Notes under the pieces: model-generated
Seen by the model: only the letters and a program-made list of their open reading frames with translations
Database searches by the model: none
What the model was told of the DNA's origin: nothing
Made by a program: the position numbers and the translations under genes
In this document: positions 1-61,520 of the stretch, one piece after another
How positions within the stretch are numbered: the stretch's first letter is position 1
How the letters are laid out: each line of letters begins with the position of its first letter
NCBI RefSeq assembly: GCF_964213995.1
Contig: NC_135810.1
Coordinates: forward strand, 83,638,001-83,702,000
Source of the DNA: Mustelus asterias
Lineage: Eukaryota
Direction: 5' to 3'
Length of the DNA: 64,000 nucleotides

Positions 1-209
1 ACTGTGGATGCAGAGTGAATTTGTAAATGGGTTTTACATAGTGAGGTCCCCATTATTGGGCATTTTATATTTTGGATTTCGATTGAAAAAGATCAAGCTT
101 GAGCTGTCTTTTGACATTTCTTGGTCATCGAAGAGACCTACGCTCAGCTGTTGTATCCTGTCTATTTCAAACAAACTAAATAAGCATAAAGAAGGCCAGC
201 TTCTTTAGT

Positions 210-740
210 GGTGTTGAAGCTGCACTCATCCAGGCAAGTGGAAATTATTCTACCACGCTCCTTGCATGTGCCTTTTAGATGGTGGACAGGCTTTGAGGAG
301 TCAGGAGGTGAATTACTCATTTCCACCTCTGACTTGCTGTATTTATAAGGCTGGTCCAGTTCAGTTTCTGGTCAACGATAGCCCCAGGATGTTGATGGTT
401 GAGGATTCATTGATGGTAATATCAGTGAACATCAAGGAAAGATGGTTCGATTCTATCTTGTTGGAGATGGTCATTGCCTGGCACTTAAGTGTCAAATAAT
501 ATTCAGCCCAAGAATGTTGTCCAGGCCTTGATGCACAGCATATAAGGAGTCGTGAATGGTACTGAACATTATAATTATCAGCAAGCTTCTGCACTTCTCA
601 CCTGGAGTGAAGATCATTGATGAGGCAACTGAAGATGGCTAGTTTGAGGGCCCCACCCTGAGGAACTCCTGCAGTGATGTCCTGGGGTTGAGAGAATTGA
701 ATTCCCACAACCACTTTTTTTTGTGCAAGGTATGACTTCA
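210..740 (-). mobile_element. Decayed CR1/L2-group LINE ORF2 fragment
   Basis: Reverse complement encodes a PLAWMSAAST-like motif; same family as the + strand copy at 50520-51195. Confidence 0.65.
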
Positions 741-1074
741 ACCCAGCTGTGTCGCAATAATGTAGTGCGTAGAACATACCAGTTTACTAGAATTGTACTG
801 ACTCAAATGTTTGAGATATTCATAAACAGCATGTTTGCATGGCCAAATTAGACTGAATTAGACAGGTAACAAACAAGTATGTTATAACATTTAAACTGAT
901 TTGGATCAGCCATAATCTTATTCAATGCTGGATCAAACTCAAGGGGCTGAATAACCTTCATTCTGCTAAAAAGGGAGAATTGTCATTTGAATGTTAAATT
1001 AGCCGAAGTGTACTCATTAGCTTTTCCTCGTAACTGAACAACTTGTGGATCTTTTTACAATGCGTGGAATTATG

Positions 1075-1795
1075 TTTTCTTCAAAGATGGAACCATCATT
1101 CCCACTCATTTCACAATTGTACGCAAATCTTTGATTACTCACCATTTTCCATTTGCTTTTTGAGCTTATGTGTCTTTCCATTCAGCCCTGCAACTATTCT
1201 GGTAAGTTCCATTATCTTTGTTTCAGAGCTAGCTGTGGATCTCTCACATAAATTCAACAACTTCACGTGGGCATTCAGTTCCTTTCAGAATCTTTCTTCC
1301 ATACTCACTGACTGCTCCTTGGACTCTTTCAATTCATTTGTTAGATCTTCAATCTGTTTCTTAAAATTTTCTGTATTTGCTTGATATCTGGATTTACTCT
1401 TCCACACTGCATCTCATCTGATTGGATTGAAGTTCAAGAATTTAATCAGATTTGGCTGTTCTGTTTTCATGCTCTGATGCATCAACAATTCTTTCTCAAA
1501 CTTCAACCATTCTGTTTCTTCCAAAGCCTCATTCTGCCTTTGTGGCACCTCAGAAATTTGTTTGTTCGGATCTTGAATACTTTGGTTCATTGAAGACATT
1601 AATTTATCATGTGTTTCCAAAGGTATATAGCTTGAATATTGCATTTCAAATCTTCTAGTTCAGCTTTGATACAAACATGTTCCTATCTTTCTTGTGCTTT
1701 TTCTTTCTCCACCTGCCTCAGAGCTTTGTCCTTATTGTTCATTTTGGTTTTAGTATTAGGCAAGTCTGTCTCTGGTCAAGTCTTAACTTGTTCCA
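1075..1795 (-). pseudogene. TPR: Nucleoprotein TPR N-terminal coiled-coil-derived portion
   Basis: NTENFKKQIEDLTNELKESKEQSVSMEERF*KELNAHVKLLNLCERSTASSETKIMELTRIV (1377-1192) vs recalled TPR [62 protein letters not shown]. Also KMNNKDKALRQVEKEKAQER~[31 protein letters not shown]~RLEQEKELL, ILELQSN~ILELKCN, and VIKDLRTIVK*VGMMVPSLKK~[21 protein letters not shown]. Confidence 0.85.
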
Positions 1796-1829
1796 TTTAT
1801 GTAATGGTGCTGCACCTGACCACATTATT

Positions 1830-2802
1830 CCTTTGTAGGGTGGAACAGTCCACAACTTTCCCCTCAACCATAGTCTGCTGGCTCAGCACTGCAGCTTGGA
1901 AAATGTCTAAAGCATTTTCTAAAACATTTACCTTTAAGACTTCCAGAAGATTTCCTGCCTTTCTGGCATCTTCATATGGTTTGCTTGAGTAGTGTATTCT
2001 TTCCTTTCACAGATTTACTGGAGATTTTCTATCATTTTAAGCTCTGTAACCTCAATAAGTTGAAGGTTAAAGTGTTTGTCAAAGGTTTTTAAATATTTCA
2101 TCGAAGCTGGTTGAGGCTTCATCGGTACATTGCATTTAGAATATTTTGTTAGTGAATTCACCAAACGAGTATAAAAATTTATTAGACCTGATGTACTCTG
2201 GTAATTTAAAATGTTCTCCTCCAGGAAGCCCAATTTTGTATCAGGTTTCGTCCTTGCATGAGTCCATGCTAACCTGGAAGAGCACATTTCTGATCTATAG
2301 TTAAAACATTTTAAATTGCAGGTTTAGCTTTAAGAGTTTTCAGAAAATCTAAGACAGCTTCATCGTACTCTTCTGCACAAAATTATTCCTGTGCTTGCCA
2401 GCTTTGGTGGACTTCTGCAGTAATGGTGTTTGCAATCTCAGCATTTAAATCTTTTCAACAATGGCTCAATGGATCGACTGGTTAGAGATTTCCCTGCTTT
2501 AGTGCTATGTTCTTGAGTTGTGGAAGTGTTGAATCGTGGCTTTTGTCAGGTTTTTAAAGCTGCCTACATGGTCATGATTAATTTTTAATTACTTTTACTT
2601 TTTGGTTCCGTGCTTGTTCAGCCGCCACCTGTTCAGGCACCAGCTCAGGAGTCGGGTTTCTGAGGCTATTAATTAAATGGCAATTTTTGACCACAGTAGT
2701 ATTTAACGTTCTTCAGGACTTGTATTGTCCAGGAATTTTAATTTAGCTCACCCCTAATAAGTCTGCTGACTCTGCACATTCTGGTTGTTGAAACTGGACC
2801 TC
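1830..2802 (-). pseudogene. DNAJC3: DNAJC3 (P58IPK)-derived tetratricopeptide-repeat portion
   Basis: Blocks vs recalled human DNAJC3: EVQFQQPECAESADL~DLQYEGAECGVNADV (2802-2758); QLKNIALKQGNL~QRGHLLLKQGKL (2520-2485); QAQE*FCAEEYDEAV~QALNAFGSGDYTAAI (2397-2353); EVTELKMIENLQ*ICERKEYTTQA/KPYEDARK~QVKKLNKLIESAEELIRDGRYTDATSKYESVMK (~2053-1960); VEGKVVDCSTLQ~VEAIRVCSEVLQ (~1868-1833). Order and spacing are collinear. Confidence 0.65.
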
Positions 2803-3154
2803 CATGGGATTCATTGGAGTCTTCTGTTACAGTGAAGAGTTGATTTTCTGCCTTCAACATCCAAGTTTTTCTTTGGAGCTTTTCTGTGGTGATTTCTTTC
2901 TGCACCATTACTTCTTGACCTTTACTTCAGGTCAGCTGCTTCTTTGATTTTTTTCCTTCAGTTTTCCAGGATTTTAATTATTTTCTGTAGTCTCTGCAAG
3001 TTGAGTTGTTCCATTCACTGTTACCATGTTGTGGAGTATTGGGAATAGGTAGGTCCTATTAAAATATTTGTAGCCTTGGGTAGTTCAACAGTAAGTTTTG
3101 ATTGAGTACTAAAAACTATATACATAGGTACAGTAAAGGCCCAAGTTAGTCTCC

Positions 3155-3612
3155 ATGGAGGCAGTTCAGAGCAGGTTTATTAGATTATTACTTAAAATGA
3201 GAGGTTGTCTTATGAGGATAGGTTGGGCTTGTTATTGTACAACTTGATTGAAGTACAAAAGATCCTGAATGGTCTCGACAAGACAGATGCGGAAAGGATG
3301 TTTCCTTTCGTGGGTGAGTATAGAACTTGGGGGCACTGTTATAAAATGAGGGGTTGCCCTTAAAGGACAAAGATGAAGAGAATTTTTTTCTGAGGGTTGC
3401 GTAACTTTGGAACTCCCTGCCTCAGAAGGTGGTGGAATTAGGGGCATTGAATAGTTAGAAGGTAGAGGTAGATAGATTCTTGTTAGACAAGGGATTCAGA
3501 GGTTATTGGAGGTTGAGGAGAATGTGGAACTTAAATCACAAACAGATCAACCAGGATCTTATTGAAAGATGGAGCAGACTTGAGGGGCCAAATGGCCTAT
3601 TTCTCCCTGTTT
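3155..3612 (+). mobile_element. CR1 (HER1-like) LINE 3' fragment
   Basis: EAVQSRF-like start, 'tggaactccctgcctcagaagg' and 3' tail 'ggagcagacttgaggggccaaatggcct'. Confidence 0.8.
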
Positions 3613-4107
3613 TGTATGTTGGCTTCTACGTGTGGCTCTGTCCAACACTACATTGATTCCTAATGTGAGTCATGTGTTCTGTTACATCAGTCCTACATTA
3701 ACCCTTTATGTGCCAGAGCTTTATACCACAAAAACAATTTTGGAAGGACTAGGATAAACTGGCGGACTTAGGTAATTTAGATGTCAAAAGTTGGGCCTAA
3801 GGAAGTGTAAATACCCGAATAGGGGGAGGGAAATTTGAAAAATCTGGTCAAGTGGACAAAGGCTTCTGTGCCCCTGAAATGTTCATAGAAAAAAGGTGGG
3901 TAGGCACAGTGTATATCAATAGGAGATCCAGGTGACTCTGGCTAGCCTTTGCTACATCTAGTGTCTGAAAGAAAATAGGAGTTGTCAAGGTCTAAAATTG
4001 TCAGAAACAGATTAGATGCAATTCTTTGAGGTTCATTTTAACAGTGTAGAAGACCCAGGTCAGAGTGTGTTGGAGAAATAGAGAAATGACAGAGGCAACA
4101 ATCATAT

Positions 4108-4232
4108 GGGCCGGTATTTTACAACTTCGCTCGGGCGAGGCTCGTAAAATTCCGTCCGAGGCTAACGGAAAATTCCGTTCTGCGAGCTACGCCTGCCCCA
4201 ATTCCGGGCAGGCATGGCGGTAAAATTCCAGC
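4108..4232. mobile_element. ~125-bp non-autonomous TIR element (Harbinger/PIF-like MITE)
   Basis: gccggtattttac ... gtaaaattccagc imperfect terminal inverted repeats, flanked by TAT on both sides; related copy at 37106-37233. Confidence 0.55.
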
Positions 4233-10290: not shown

Positions 10291-11643
10291 ATAGAAACAT
10301 AGAATAAATACAGCACAAACAGGCCCTTCGGCCCACAAGTTGCGCCGGTCATGTCCCTACCTACCTAGGCTTATATATAGGCTTACCTATAACCCTCAAT
10401 CCTATTAAGTCCCATGTACTCATCCAGAAGTCTCTTAAAAGACCCTGTCGAGTTTGCCTCCACCACCACTGACGGCAGCCGATTCCACTCACCCACTGCC
10501 CTCTGAGTGAAAAACTTGCCCCTGACATCTCCTCTGTACCTACTCCCCAGCACCTTAAACCTGTGTCCTCTCGTAGCAGCCATTTCAGCCCTGGGAAAAA
10601 GCCTCCGAGAATCCACCCGATCTATACCTCTCAACATCTTGTACACTTCTATCAGGTCACCTCTCCTCCTTCGTCTCTCCAAGGAGAAAAGACCGAGTTC
10701 CCTCAACCTATCCTCATAAGGCATGCCAACCGATCCAGGCAACATCCTTGTAAATCTTCTCTGCACCCTTTCAATAATTTCCACATCCCTCCTGTAATGA
10801 GGCGACCAGAACTGAGCACAGTACTCTTAAGTGGGATCTGACGAGGGTCTTATAAAGCTGCATCATTATCTCCGACTCCTAAACTCAATCCCTCGATTGG
10901 TGAAGGCCAGCACACCATACGCCTTCTTAACCACCTCCTCTACCTGCAAGGCCGATTTAAGAGTCCTGTGGACCCGGACCCCAAGGTCCTTCTGATCTTC
11001 TACACTGCTAAGAGTCTTACCCGTGATATTATACTCCTCCATCCCATTTGACCTGCCAAAATGGACCACTACACATTTATCCGGGTTGAAGTCCATCTGC
11101 CACTTCTCCGCCCAGTCTTGCATCCTATCTATGTCACGCTGCAGCTTTTGACATCCCTCCAAACTATCCACAACACCACCAACCTTTGTGTCGTCGGCAA
11201 ACTTACCAACCCATCCCTCCACTTCCTTATCCAGCTCATTTATGAAAATGACAAACAGCAAGGGTCCCAGAACAGATCCCTGGGGCACTCCACTGGTGAC
11301 CGACCTCCATTCAGAAAAAGACCCATCTACAACCACTCTCTGCCTTCTGCAGGCAAGTCAGTTCTGGATCCACAGGGCAGCAGCCCCTTGGATCCCATGC
11401 CCTCTCACTTTCTCGAGAAGTCTTGCATGGGGGACCTTATCGAATGCCTTGTTGAAGTCCATGTAAACCACATCTACCGCTTTTCCTTCGTCAATGTGTT
11501 TAGTCACATTTTCAAAGAACTCCACCAGGCTCGTAAGGCACAATTTGCTTTTGACAAAGCCGTGCTGACTACTTTTGAGCATACTAAACTTCTCTAAATG
11601 TTCATAAATCCTGTCCCTCAGGATCTTCTCCATCAACTTACCA
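10291..11643 (-). mobile_element. Young 5'-truncated CR1 (HER1-like) LINE, RT domain to 3' tail
   Basis: ORFs with [38 protein letters not shown]; (tctatgtt)-type tail; AAGTAT at both junctions. Confidence 0.95.
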
Positions 11644-23779: not shown

Positions 23780-25305
23780 ATAGAAACATAGAAAAACTAC
23801 AGCACAAACAGGCCCTTCGGCCCACAAGTTGTGCCGAACACATCCCTACCTTCTAGACCTACCTATAACTCTCTATCCTATTAAGCTCCATGTACTCATC
23901 CAGGAGTCTCTTAAAAGACCCTATTGAGTTCGCCTCCACCACCACTGACGGCAGCCGATTCCACTCGCCCAGCACCCTCTGTGTGAAGAACTTACCCCTA
24001 ACATCTCCCCTGTACCTATCCCCCAGCACCTTAAACCTGTGTCCTCTTGTAGCAGACATTTCCGCCCTGGGAAAAAGCCTCTGAGAGTCCACCCGATCTA
24101 TGCCTCTCAACATCTTATACACCTCTATTAGGTCTCCTCTCATCCTTCGTCTCTCCAAGGAGAAAAGACCGAGCTCCCTCAGCCTATCCTCATAAGGCAT
24201 GCCACTCAATCCAGGCAACATCCTTGTAAATCTCCTCTGCACCCTTTCAATCTTTTCCACGTCCTTCCTATAGTGAGGCGACCAGAACTGAGCACAGTGG
24301 GGTCTGACGAGGGTCTTATATAGCTGCATCATTATCCCCAGACTCCTAAACTCAATCCCTCGATTGATAAAGGCCAGCACACCATACGCCTTCTTAACCA
24401 CCTCCTCCACCTGCAGGGCCGATTTTAGAGTCCTATGGACCCGGACCCCAAGGTCCTTCTGATCCTCTACAGTACTAAGAGTCTTTCCCTTTATATTGTA
24501 CTCCTTCATCCCATTTGACCTACCAAAATGGACCACTACGCATTTATCTGGGTTGAAGTCCATCTGCCACTTGTCCGCCCAGTCTTGCATCCTATCTATG
24601 TCCCTCTGTAACTTCTGACATCCCTCCAGACTATCCACAACCCCACCAACCTTCGTGTCGTCGGCAAACTTACCAACCCATCCCTCCGCTTCCTCATCCA
24701 GGTCATTTATGAAAATGACAAACAGCAAGGGTCCCAGAACAGATCCCTGGGGCACTCCACTGGTGACCGACCTCCATTTAGAAAAAGACCCATCTATACC
24801 CACTCTCTGCCTCCTTTGGGCAAGCCAGTTCTGGATCCACCGGGCAGCAGCCCCTTGGATCCCATGCCCTCTCACTTTTTCTAGAAGCCTTGCATGGGGG
24901 ACCTTATCAAACGCCTTGCTAAAATCCATATAAACCACATCTACCGCCTTCCCTTCGTCGATGTGTTTAGTCACATTTTCAAAGAACTCCACCAGGCTCG
25001 TAAGGCACGATCTGCCCTTGACAAAGCCATACTGAGTATTCTTGAGCATACTAAGCCTCTCTAGATGTCCCTCAGGATCTTCTCCATCAGTTTACCAACC
25101 ACTGAGGTTAGACTCACCAGTCGGTAATTTCCTGGGCTGTCCCTATTCCCCTTCTTGAAAATAGGAACCACATCCGCAATCCTCCAGTCCTCCGGCACCT
25201 CTCCCGTCTCCATCGATGACGCAAAGATCATCGCCAGAGGCTCTGCAATCTCTTCCCTCACCTCCCACAGTAATCTGGGGTACATCCCATCCGGACCAGG
25301 ATAAA
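23780..25305 (-). mobile_element. Young 5'-truncated CR1 (HER1-like) LINE with a 396-aa open RT segment
   Basis: ORF 23859-25049 has all CR1 RT motifs; upstream PGPDGMYPRLL..PEDWRIADVVPIFKKG. Same subfamily as 10291-11643. Confidence 0.95.
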
Positions 25306-27896: not shown

Positions 27897-29715
27897 ATTT
27901 TGATTTGATTTGATTTATTATTGCAACATGTATTAACATACAGTGAAAAATATTGCTTCTTGCGCGCTACACAGACAAAACATACCGTTCACAGAGAAGG
28001 AAATGAGAGAGTGCAGAATGTAGTGTTAAAGTCATAGCTAGGGTGTCGAGAAAGATCAACTTAATGCAAGGTAAGTCCATTCAAAAGTCTGATGGCAGCA
28101 GCAGGGAAGAAGCTGTTCTTGAGTCGGTTGGTACGTGACCTCAGACTTTTGTATCTTTTTCCTGACGGAAGAAGGCGGAAGAGAGAATGTCCGGGGTGCG
28201 TGGGGTCCTTAATTATGCTGGCTGCTTTGCTGAGGCAGTGGGAAGTGTAGACAGAGTCAATTGATGGGAGGCTGGTTTGCGTGATGAATTGGGCTACATT
28301 CACGACCTTTTGTAGTTCCTTGCGGTCTTGGGCAGAGCAGGAACCATACCACGCAGTGATACAACCAGAAAGAATGTTTTCTATGGTGCATCTGTAAAGG
28401 TTGGTGAGAATCATAGCTGACATGCCAAATTTCCTTAGTCTTCTGAGAAAGTAGAGGCGTTGGTGGGCTTTCTTAACTATGGTGTTGGCATGGGGGGACC
28501 AGGACAGGTTGTTGGTGATCTGGACACCTAAAAACTTGAAGCTCTTGACCCTTTCTACTTCATGCCCGTTGATGTAGACAGGGGCATATTCTCCTCTATG
28601 CTTTCTGAAGTCGATGACAATCTCCTTCGTTTTGTTGACATTGAAGGAGAGATTATATTTGCTGCACCAGTTCACCAGATTCTCTATCTCATTCCTGTAC
28701 TCTCTCATCATTGTTTGAGATCCGACCCACTCCAGTGGTGTCGTCAGCAAACTTGAAAATCGAGTTGGAGGGCAATTTGGCCGCACAGTCATAGGTGTAT
28801 AAGGAGTATAGTAGGGAGCTGAGAACACAGCCTTGTGGGCACCAGTGTTGAGGATGATCATGAAGGAGGTGTTGTTGTCTATCCTTACGATTGTGGTCTG
28901 TGAGTTAGGAAGTTCAGGATCCAGTCGCAGAGGGAGGAGCCGAGGCCCAGGTCACGGAGTTTGGAGATGAGTTTCGTGGGAATAATAGTATTGAAGGCTG
29001 AGCTGTAGTCAATAAATAGGAGTCTGACATAGGTGTCCTTGTTATCTAGATGTTCCAGGGTTGAGTGCAGGGCCAGGGAGATGGTGTCTGCTGTGGACCT
29101 GTTGTGGAGGTAGGCAAACTGTAGTGGATCCAAGTAGTCTGGGAGGCTGGAATTGATTCGTGCCATGACTAGCCTTTCGAAGCACTTCATAATGATGGAT
29201 GTCAGATCGACCAGCCAATAGTCATTAAGGCACGCTGCTTGGTTTTTCTTGGATACCGAGATGATGGTCGTCTACTTGAAGCAGATAGGGGTTTCAGATT
29301 GTTGTAAAGAGAGGTTGAAGATGTCTGTGAATACCCCTGCCAGCTGAACCGCGCAGGATCTGAGTGCTCGTCCGGGTACCCCATTCGGGCCAGTCGCTTT
29401 CCCTGGGTTGACCTTCGAAAAGGCTGTTCTGGCATCTGTAATGGTGACCCAGATACAGGTTCTTCCAGGGTGGAGGGCATGCTCTCGCTGACCTCTTGCT
29501 CAAAACGGACATAGAATGCATTGAGCTCATCAGGGAGGGGTGCGTTGGAACTGGTGATTTTACATGCCTTCATCTTGTAGCCTGTTATGTCTTGCAGACC
29601 TTGCCATAGTTGGCAGGGGTTGGTGTGGCTAGCCTGGGACTCTAGCTTGGTCCAGTACTGTCTTTTGGCATCTTTGATGGATGATCTTAGATCATATCTG
29701 GCTTCTGACTTGACC
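27897..29715 (-). mobile_element. Rex1/Babar LINE, 5'-truncated
   Basis: [42 protein letters not shown] and KKAHQRLYFLRRLRKFGM..ITAWYG; (ATCAA)n tail at 27897-27915. Confidence 0.92.
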
Positions 29716-57674: not shown

Positions 57675-60600
57675 TCAAAGAACAGTACAGCATAGGAACA
57701 GGCCCTTCAGCCCTGGAAGCCTGCTCCAATCACATTGTCCTAACTAGACCAACCTCCTGTACCCCTCTATTCCCTGCCTGTTCCAGTGTCTATCCAGATG
57801 AGTCTTAAATGCTGCTAACGTGTTTGCCTCAACCACCTCACTTGGCAGTGCATTACAGGCCCCCACCACCCTCTGTGTAAAAGCTTCCCCCGCACATCTC
57901 CACTGAACCTTCCTCTCCTCTGTCATTTCTGCCCTGGGAAAAAGCTTCCAACTGTTCACCTTATGTGTGCCCCTCATAATTTTATAAACTTCTATCAGGT
58001 TGCCCCGCAGCCTCCATCTTTCCAAAGAGAATAATCCCAGTTTATTCAATCTCTACTTCTAACTCATACCCTCCGTACCAGGCAACATCCTGGGAAACCT
58101 TTTCTGTACTCCCTCCAAAGCCTCCACGTCCTTCTGATATATGGCGACCAGAATTGGACACAGTATTCCAAATGTGGTCTAATCAACGTTTTATATAACT
58201 GTAAACATAATTTGCCTACTTTTATACCCGATGCCCCGGCCGATGAAGGCAGGTATGCCATATGCTTTCTTCACCACCTTTCCCACCTGTGCTGCCACTT
58301 TTAAGGATCTGTGGATCTGTACTCCCAGATCTGTGTGAATTGCTCCTGATGTTTCTGCCATTTATTTTATAGCTCCCACCTGAACTGGATCTACCAAAAT
58401 GCATCACCTCGCATTTGTCCGGATTAAATTCCATCTGCCATTTCTCCTCCCAATTTTCCAGCCTATCTATATCCTGCTGTATTCTCTGACAATCTTCATT
58501 ACCATCCACAACTTCAGCAATCTTAGCATCATCCGCAAACTTGCTAATCAGACCAGTTACGTTTTCTTCCAAGTCATTTGTATATATTACAAACAACAGA
58601 GGTCCCAGCACTGATCCCTGCAGAACACCACTAGTTACAGACCTCCATTCAGAAAAACACCCTTCCACCACTACCCTCTTGTCTTCTATGGCCAAGCCAG
58701 TTCTGAATCCATTTAGCTAGTTCACCCTTGATCCTGTGTGATTTAACCTTTTGCACCAGCCTGCCATGAGGGACCTTGTCAAATACTTTACTAAGGTCCA
58801 TGTAGACAATATCCATGGCCCTTCCCTCGTCAATCATTTTTGTCACCTCCTCAAAAAACTCAATCAAACTAGTGAGACACAACCTCCTTCATACAAAACC
58901 ATGCTGTCTGTCGCTAACAAGACCATTCAGCTCCAAATGTGTATAGATCCTATCCCTAAGAATCTTTTCCAACAATTTCACTATCACTGATGTAAGGCTC
59001 ACTCGCCTATATTTACTCCGGTTATCCTTGATACCCTTCTTAAATCACGGGACAACATTGGCTATCCTCCAATCCTCTGGGACCTTGCCTGGGGCCAATG
59101 AGGAAACAAAGATCAAACAAAGGAAACAAAGGCCCAGCAATTTCCTCCTTTGTCTCCCTCAGTAATCTGGGATAGATACCATCTGGCCCTGGGGATTTGT
59201 CTACCTTAATACTTTTTAATACACCTAACACTTCCTCCCTTGTAATGATGACTTGCTCTTGAGGGTTTACATACCCCTCCGAGACACCATCAGTCAACAT
59301 GTCCCTCTGCTTTGTGAACACCGATGCAAAGTACTCATTAAGGATCTCACCCACTTTCTTTGGTTCTATGCATAATTTCCCTCCTTTGTCCCTGAGTGGA
59401 TCAACTCTTTCTCTAGCTACCCTCTTGTTCCTATTGTACGTATAAAATGCCTCGGGATTCTCCTTAACCGTGCCTGTCAAGGACATTTTGTGACCCCTTT
59501 TTGCTGTCCTAACTCCCTTTTTGAGTTTTCTATTTTCCTTGAATTCTTCAAGTGCTTCATCTGTTTTTAGTCACCGAGACCTTTTTCTTTTTGACTAGAC
59601 TCACAATTTCCCTGATCATCCACGGTTCCCGAATCCTAACTTCCCTGTCCTTCCTTTTCACAGGCACATGCCTGTCCTGTGCTCTGATCAACTGCTCCTT
59701 AAAAGACTCCCACATGCCAGATGTGGGTTTACCCTCAAACAGCCTCTCCCAAACAACAGCCTCCAAATCCTGCCTAATCCGGTTGTCGTTAGCCTTCCCC
59801 CAATTTAGTACATTAACCCAAGGATAACACTTGTCCTTTTCCATGAGTATCCAAAAACTTACGGAATTGTGGTCACTGTTCATCACGTGTTCCACTACTC
59901 AACTTTGACCTGGCTGAGCTCATTCTCTAGTACCAGGTCCAGTCTAGCCTCTTCTCTAGTCGGACTATCTACATTTTGTTCCAAAAAACCTTCCTGGACA
60001 CACTTAACAAATGCCTCACCATCCAGACCCCTACCCTAAGGGATTTCCAGTCAATATGAGGAAAATGAAAGTCTCCCATTACAACAACCCTACTATTTCT
60101 ACATCTGTCCAGAATCTGCTTACACATCTGTTCTCCAACTTCCCGTGGGCTGTTGGGAGGCCCCATCATAGTGACTGCCCCCTTCCTGTTTTTGAGTCGA
60201 CCCACAGTTTCTTGTTGCATGATTCTTCCAAGGTGTCCTCCCTCTGTACAGCTGTAATATGTTCTGTAATCAGTATTGCAACTCCGCCATCTCTTTTGCC
60301 TTCCCCTCTGTCTCGCCTAAAACACCCAGAACATTTAGCTGCCAGTCCTGTCCCTCTTTTAACCAAGTCTCTGTAACTGCAACCACATCCAAGTTCTGCA
60401 CATGAATCAAGGCTCTAAGTTCACTTGTCTTACCTGTTATACTCCTTGCATTGGAGCAGATACACTCCAGACCTCCAGGCCCACTGAGTTTGATCTCCCT
60501 CAGCCTACTTTTTCTCTTAGCTAGCCTGGCCTTGGTCCCATGCTCATCCCCAGTTTCTACACTTGCTGACCCCTCTGCCACACTAGTTTAAACCCACCCG

Positions 60601-61520
60601 ATCCACACTAGCAAATCTCCCAGCCAGGATATTGGTGCCCTCCAGTTCAGGTGTAACCCGTCCTTGTACAGGCCCTACCTTCCCTGAAAGACATCCCAAT
60701 GATCCACAAATCAGAAGCCCTCCCTCCTGCACCAGTTCTTTAGCCACGTGTTCAGCTGCACTATCTCTCTGTTTCTAGCCTCACTAGCACATGGCACGGG
60801 GAGTAATCCTGAGATTGCTACCCTAGAGGTCCTGCTTTTTAATCTTCTACCTAACTCCCTAAATTGCCATTGCAGGACTTCGCTACTTTTTCTATCTGTA
60901 TCATTCATGCCAATGTGGACAATCACATCTGACTGATCTCCCACTCGTTTTAGGATACTTTGTACCAGCTCAGAGACATCCAGGACCCTGGCACCAGGGA
61001 GGCAAACTACCATCCTGGAGTCCATTTCGTGGCCACCGAAGCACCTATCTGTGCCCCTGACTATTGAATTCCCTACCACTATTACTTTGTTACACTTTGT
61101 ACCCCACCTCTGTGCAGCAGAGCTAGCTGTGGTACCTTCGCTTTGGCCACTGCTGTTGCTGTCCACTGATGGACCTTCCTCCTCATCAGTATCCAAGACA
61201 GCATACTTGTTAGATAGGGGGACAGCCATAAGGGACCCCTGCACTGGCTGCCTACCCAGTCTGCCGGTCACCCATCTATCTTCCTGCATCTTGGGTGTGA
61301 CCACATCTCTAGCTATTATCTACAACAATTTCAGCTAATTGTGTGCTCCTCAGTGCTTCCAGCTGCTGTTCTAACCGATCCATGTGTTCGGTGAGCATTT
61401 GCAACTGGATACACTTCCCACAGATGTAGACCTCAGGGACACGTGAAGTGTCCATGATACCCCACATCTTGCAGGAGTAGCACACAACCCTGCCACTTGA
61501 CATCTCTCTCCCTCTATTGG
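57675..61520 (-). mobile_element. Near full-length degenerate CR1 (HER1-like) LINE: ORF1 (Cys motif + coiled coil + SGNH esterase-like) and ORF2 (APE endonuclease + RT)
   Basis: ORF1: VCYSCKMW..YICGKCIQL, VIVVGNSIVRG..CLPGARV..VHIGMND. ORF2: CSNARSI..VAVTETWL, MGDFHFPHIDW, SDHNSV, KFADDAK. Multiple frameshifts. Confidence 0.93.

What the first reader, a model, noticed from the sequence alone, without database searches (positions are those of the whole stretch)
1000..3027. Fossil chimeric retrogene fusing a DNAJC3/P58IPK tetratricopeptide array to the nucleoprotein TPR coiled coil
Seen: a minus-strand decayed reading from a Kozak ATG at 3027 with five collinear DNAJC3-like blocks (2802-1830), followed with no intron by TPR-like blocks (1795-1075). 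Established: DNAJC3 and TPR are unrelated multi-exon genes. P58IPK is an ER co-chaperone and PKR/PERK inhibitor. The TPR N-terminal coiled coil is the dimerising module in TPR-MET and TPR-NTRK1 fusions. Inference: two processed mRNAs were joined into one ORF. Heavy amino-acid divergence with preserved frame continuity across the junction suggests it evolved as a protein before decaying, so intact relatives may exist in chondrichthyans. I know of no description of such a fusion.
Basis: partly seen in the sequence, partly recalled or inferred. Interest (0 to 1): 0.85.

Follow-up and report, generated by a model that had tools for sequence, protein, structure and literature searches.

The report
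Shark retrotransposon carrying captured coiled-coil genes
This is not a fused DNAJC3-TPR gene but a dead copy of an abundant, ancient shark jumping gene whose enzyme genes are replaced by pieces of host coiled-coil genes (UACA and TPR here, a third in sister copies) strung into one reading frame, which was likely kept open so that its RNA could be translated to the end.

Summary
The TPR half is real; the DNAJC3 half is not. Shark DNAJC3 gives no significant match (best E 0.49; Z 2.0). The stretch is a decayed, 3'-truncated copy of a non-autonomous Ty3/Gypsy-type LTR element with at least 150, probably several hundred, copies. The 'Kozak ATG' is the LTR end plus a tRNA-Leu primer site. 3015-2299 is a non-coding leader and 2298-2060 is the start of gag. 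1684-1500 is a piece of the giant UACA exon (79% identity), and only 1497-1079 is spliced TPR mRNA. Longer sister copies also carry a third host exon (ninein-like by recall). Across 47 copies one frame runs from the gag start through all cargo (2 shared-stop columns against 40 and 45), and in complete copies about 105 codons on into the element's own tail. 18 of 22 junction classes are in frame and no subfamily shares a frameshift, yet amino-acid change looks near neutral (omega-like 0.81). Capture by template switching is known (maize Bs1; Tan 2016). A multi-copy vertebrate family with in-frame multi-gene cargo was not found in three literature searches. No intact copy was found.

The parts
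3027..3730 (-).
   Evidence: Same sequence at both ends of complete copies; LTR pairs 72.5-80.4% identical in 4 elements
3150..3615 (+). Later insertion into the LTR: 3' fragment of a CR1-type LINE (type recognised from recall)
   Evidence: Absent from other copies, where win 3616 joins win 3149; translation; very high depth
3016..3026 (-). Primer-binding site complementary to the 3' end of tRNA-Leu(AAG/TAG)
   Evidence: 17 of 25 other copies begin TGG here, 11 of 25 keep the first 9 bases, 2 of 25 all 11; tRNA identity
2299..3015 (-).
   Evidence: Shared stops in all three frames; no DNAJC3 match
2060..2298 (-). N-terminal ~80 codons of gag, decayed
   Evidence: tblastn E 5e-10 to the gag start of copy L008; Z 9.3 against the gag of L186; sister elements continue into a CCHC knuckle and RT
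1896..2059 (-). Unassigned coding segment, open in the family frame
   Evidence: 0 of 64 shared-stop columns against 3 and 5; no donor found
1791..1895 (-). First UACA piece (3' part of the giant exon), weak in this copy
   Evidence: Alignment; E 1e-4 in copy L099; clearer in L107, L115-L117
1685..1790 (-). Unassigned coiled-coil-like segment, open in the family frame
   Evidence: 0 of 39 shared-stop columns against 3 and 3; followed by the third host exon in other subfamilies
1498..1684 (-). Second UACA piece (G000:C24:4679898-4680097)
   Evidence: 79% nt, E 1.5e-42; gene named
1079..1497 (-). Spliced TPR mRNA (parts of six exons) with family-wide internal deletions of 33, 96 and 186 nt; the copy is truncated at about 1080
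   Evidence: other copies run on into tail, polypurine tract and 3' LTR; no 3' LTR in the window or the next 10 kb

Best explanation
The stretch is a dead, 3'-truncated copy of a multi-copy shark LTR retroelement in which the enzyme genes are replaced by pieces of host UACA and spliced TPR mRNA (plus a third host exon in sister copies), likely picked up by reverse-transcriptase template switching and likely spread by helper elements. Shown: the LTR-primer site-leader-gag anatomy, the donors, the dispersed copies, and one frame shared across copies from the gag start through the cargo into the element's own tail. Inferred: host mRNAs were co-packaged in the particle; switches at 3-10 nt microhomologies added and trimmed pieces in several rounds; autonomous relatives supplied Gag and Pol in trans. 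I commit to selection on translation of the RNA as the reason the frame stayed open: master RNAs that ribosomes could read to the normal stop would escape nonsense-mediated decay or reach particles better, whatever the protein said. Confidence is about 0.92 for the identity and 0.5 for this reason.
For: Anatomy. Gag/RT in sisters with the same LTR and leader: zf-CCHC E 0.007-0.008, RVT_1 E 2e-5, RT chain 4ol8 E 0.006. Donors. Frame: 2 shared-stop columns against 40 and 45 in 47 copies; 2 of 186 against 21 and 11 from gag to UACA in 12 copies; open to about 105 codons past TPR in 10 copies, in a tail shared with 4 of 8 gag-bearing sister loci. 18 of 22 junction classes in frame. No shared frameshift in 5 subfamilies (71 copies) while 532 of 658 small indels shift the frame. 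Protein sequence unconstrained: 54 amino-acid changes against 66.5 expected. Microhomologies.
Against: Shared 6-10-mers in these genes are already 50-84% in frame (100% for 5 TPR 10-mers), so 18 of 22 has p 0.002 to 0.50 depending on the null, and the classes are not independent. One junction class is off frame in 3 of 4 copies. 4 of 84 subfamily-diagnostic changes involve a stop, the neutral share; one non-CpG stop is in 6 of 12 copies of subfamily A1. Expected shared frameshifts under neutrality are only about 3 (532/14614 x 84; my arithmetic, P(0) about 0.05). All Pfam hits for gag and RT are under the curated cut-offs. Target-site duplications could not be read. No decay or packaging mechanism was tested.
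Confidence: 0.5

Rival explanations
1. Same element and capture mechanism, but the open frame is a by-product: template switches between codon-biased coiled-coil mRNAs favour in-frame partners, and the masters were active too briefly to gather frameshifts.
For: In-frame bias of microhomologies; star-like tree with short internal branches; omega-like 0.81 and neutral share of stops; candidate A1 stop.
Against: Joins between unrelated sequences (gag to cargo, cargo to tail) are also in frame; zero shared frameshifts against about 3 expected.
Confidence: 0.27
2. The element made a working Gag-N/coiled-coil fusion protein that helped it spread, for example by co-assembling with helper Gag; selection kept frame and coil character but not exact residues.
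For: All identified donors are long coiled coils; frame kept at both ends and through repeated remodelling; near-fixed differences to the host include no stop.
Against: No significant purifying selection (Fisher p 0.24 and 1.0); cargo length and order vary widely between subfamilies; no intact copy.
Confidence: 0.2
3. One reading: an L1-type chimeric retrogene joining DNAJC3 tetratricopeptide repeats to TPR, translated from the ATG at 3027.
For: Two short look-alikes (2553-2485, 2364-2320) in the right order, E 0.49; TPR is spliced.
Against: No significant DNAJC3 match; leader closed in all frames; LTR, primer site, gag and UACA explain the stretch; hundreds of dispersed relatives.
Confidence: 0.01

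Closest known systems
LTR-mediated retrocopies in animals (Tan et al. 2016, PMC5131818; 12 passages read)
   Same: Partial mRNAs replace the internal ORFs of an LTR element; microsimilarity at joins; several parental genes possible; further rounds of retroposition.
   Different: In the passages read the cases are young, with one or a few insertion sites. Here there are hundreds of old copies in several subfamilies, rebuilt repeatedly, with one frame from gag start to the element's tail.
Maize Bs1 (as summarised in review PMC13317346, passages read; primary paper not held)
   Same: LTR element with pieces of three host genes forming one chimeric ORF.
   Different: Plant; enzyme-gene cargo; reported as transcribed and translated. 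Here vertebrate, all-coiled-coil cargo, and every copy examined is dead.
Acutely transforming retroviruses with delta-gag/cell-gene fusions (recalled, no call)
   Same: Helper-dependent genome with truncated gag fused in frame to spliced host sequence.
   Different: Those are short-lived and selected by tumour growth; this is a germline Ty3/Gypsy-type family with no sign of env or a signalling domain.
HERV-K/FAM8A1 capture (cited in PMC5131818)
   Same: Vertebrate LTR element that took up a spliced host mRNA.
   Different: One gene, described there as an untranscribed processed pseudogene.

Membership tests
LTR retrotransposon | Two direct LTRs with TG...CA ends | tested here: met
   Complete copies L101, L102, L183, L184; the window copy keeps only the 5' LTR
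LTR retrotransposon | tRNA primer-binding site after the 5' LTR | tested here: met
   tRNA-Leu complement
LTR retrotransposon | Polypurine tract before the 3' LTR | tested here: met
   G-rich run directly before the LTR start in most of 13 3' LTRs shown, read by eye
LTR retrotransposon | 4-6 nt target-site duplication | tested here: inconclusive
   Flanks too decayed
Ty3/Gypsy | gag with CCHC knuckle, protease, Gypsy-type RT in the parent | tested here: inconclusive
   Present in decayed sisters but below Pfam cut-offs; only PDB hit is RT chain 4ol8 (Ty3 by recall); Atlas gives DUF7041 and DUF1759
Ty3/Gypsy | Order RT-RNase H-integrase | not tested
   No complete autonomous partner was fetched
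LTR-mediated retrocopy (Tan 2016) | Spliced partial host mRNA replacing internal ORFs | tested here: met
   Six TPR exons in the window, up to ten in longer copies
LTR-mediated retrocopy (Tan 2016) | Microsimilarity at switch points | tested here: inconclusive
   3-10 nt exact at nine cargo-internal joins, read on today's host sequence, no null run; element-to-cargo joins not measured
LTR-mediated retrocopy (Tan 2016) | Secondary retroposition as a non-autonomous element | tested here: met
   150 of 150 scored, 118 of 150 at E<=1e-12, on many contigs
L1-type processed retrogene | Single copy without LTRs, with poly(A) tail | tested here: not met
   LTR-flanked, multi-copy, no A-tail after TPR
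DNAJC3-derived sequence | Significant similarity to DNAJC3 | tested here: not met

The most novel reading that the evidence does not exclude
An ancient shark LTR element family swapped its enzymes for a mosaic of host centrosomal, cytoskeletal and nuclear-basket coiled coils and was selected to keep making a Gag-N/coiled-coil fusion protein through many rounds of in-frame remodelling: a parasite of a parasite that built its own new protein from host parts and spread to hundreds of copies, possibly leaving a domesticated intact gene in some shark.
Probability: 0.2. Interest if true: 0.85.

Novelty: new variant of a known kind. Interest (0 to 1): 0.55.

Why it matters
It gives a large natural sample of exon shuffling by an LTR element in a vertebrate. 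Hundreds of fossil copies record successive captures and trims, so one can test whether non-autonomous LTR elements must keep an open frame, and whether for the RNA or the protein. It also explains spurious TPR-like gene models in shark annotations (two catshark examples).

Tried and rejected
Pfam and PDB on raw frames of the window: nothing useful. Homologue search with the TPR piece was empty because it stops at 2000 aa. Atlas on the TPR piece gave only generic coiled coils. Single-sequence fold of gag: pLDDT 37, not used; gag profile against PDB gave only weak unrelated hits. The C18 donor got no name from Pfam or PDB. Donor search for 2059-1896 found only 3 element copies among 58 candidates. 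No RNA holder listed. Frequency-class N/S against the host (4.0 rare, 1.85 high, 0.98 near-fixed) was rejected as a selection test because it mixes host-lineage change and transition bias. Two of nine anchors were mis-phased by me and are not counted. Earlier scan findings: none relevant. Rfam: none.

Full report
Observation. The window is G000:C10:83638001-83702000 of a 3.68 Gb genome whose proteins are closest to sharks'. The flagged stretch is a dispersed repeat: 1478 first-look candidates for 900-3200 (40 scored, about 70-75% identical), 673 for the TPR part, 150 of 150 scored for the UACA part and 118 of 150 at E<=1e-12 for a TPR-piece protein. A public contig bridges 1331-2462 without a difference (possibly the same sample), so the junction is not a misassembly.

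DNAJC3 is absent. I found the genome's own DNAJC3 and tested five cartilaginous-fish proteins and ten exon blocks. Best tblastn E on the window is 0.49; there is no hit at E<0.1 in 156 element loci; the best exon blastn hit within 1830-2802 is 12 nt (E 0.07). A frameshift-aware score gives Z 2.0, against 9.3 for gag, 29.8 for UACA and 29.6 for TPR.

What the parts are. The ATG at 3027 is the last base of an LTR plus the first two of a primer-binding site that complements the 3' end of tRNA-Leu. The LTR starts at 3730 and holds a 465-nt LINE insert. Complete copies have two LTRs, 72.5-80.4% alike in four cases, with a G-rich tract before the second. The leader to 2299 has shared stops in all three frames. 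From 2298 the sequence is the start of gag: sister elements with the same LTR and leader continue through gag, a CCHC knuckle and an RT fragment (all weak hits on decayed DNA, so 'Ty3/Gypsy' is likely, not proven). 1684-1488 matches the giant exon of UACA at 79%. 1497-1079 is TPR with introns removed (TPR named via PF07926 and P0243). The window copy stops at about 1080; others go on into a tail and 3' LTR.

The family. Copies fall into at least five subfamilies with different cargo: up to about 1.3 kb of UACA, up to ten TPR exons, and in 41 of 88 loci a piece of a third host exon (C18, 590 open codons, whose count of 42 includes the window, which has no such hit). I recognise that exon as ninein-like from recall only. 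Copies are 76% like the host and 74% like each other, in a star-like tree. A catshark gene model has the same TPR deletions (P0241), and a contig of another species covers 904-3319 at about 93%, flank included, so both the family and this insertion are old. In a protein tree of the 10 longest of 34 copies with 12 UACA orthologues, the copies join near the white shark, catshark and host (support 0.92 against carpet sharks and more distant groups; 0.73 within). This is weak, since copies were read on host coordinates.

The frame. Over 2298-1080, one frame has 2 columns where 40% or more of copies have a stop, against 40 and 45 in the others (47 copies); the seven correctly phased anchors from gag start to TPR lie in it. 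It holds separately from gag to UACA and in both unassigned segments, and continues about 105 codons past TPR, with one 40% column on the way, in a tail shared with gag-bearing sisters (10 sequences). Of 22 junction classes seen in three or more copies 18 are in frame; two of the rest are composites over an A-run, one has no mode, one is off frame in 3 of 4 copies. No subfamily shares a small frameshift, while 532 of 658 small indels overall shift the frame; 13 of 1822 codon columns have shared stops, 6 with the CpG-decay pattern. Against this: microhomologies in these genes are biased to in-frame; subfamily-diagnostic changes give 54 amino-acid changes against 66.5 expected and 4 stops of 84. 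The window copy itself has many stops and at least two net frameshifts. No element copy had an open frame over 284 codons, each of which scored only 150 candidates.

Mechanism. Inferred: co-packaged host mRNAs were copied in by template switching, as described for animals in PMC5131818 (passages read), and the product spread with helper enzymes. An open frame with unconstrained residues fits selection on reading the RNA through (0.5) better than a by-product (0.27) or a working fusion protein (0.2). None of these was tested directly.

Novelty. The mechanism is known, and maize Bs1 is a three-gene precedent (review PMC13317346, passages read). Searches for shark+UACA+TPR+retrotransposon, chondrichthyan+gypsy+LTR+gene capture and elasmobranch+retrotransposon+retrocopies+chimeric+gag returned no paper; some searches were seen as listings only. 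Repeat libraries could not be searched, so the family may already have a library name.

Noticed in passing
L180-L187 (e.g. L184:4991-9325): Sister elements with the same LTR and leader keep gag, knuckle, protease-like and partial RT but are only about 2.9-4.3 kb: internally deleted too; no full autonomous partner was seen.
   Followed up: partly
L205:3449-5218 (G000:C18): 590-codon coiled-coil exon, donor of the third cargo piece; ninein-like by recall, unnamed by tools.
   Followed up: partly
P0241, P0242: Catshark 'hypothetical proteins' that look like gene models called on decayed copies of this element (P0241 has the family's TPR deletions).
   Followed up: partly
G000:C21:8133500-8135500 and C71:10927900-10930000: Clusters of tRNA-Leu genes (3 and 2); the 15-base tRNA end occurs 211 times in the genome.
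   Followed up: partly
window 190-720 (-), 10866-11357, 23859-25091, 28061-28951, 58222-61319: LINE reverse-transcriptase and related fragments (CR1/L2/Rex-like by recall); no host exon among the 11 ORFs of 150 aa or more in the window.
   Followed up: no
window 4100-4232: Short GC-rich repeat with an internal 23-nt duplication, also found in L040 and L053; probably a small mobile element.
   Followed up: no
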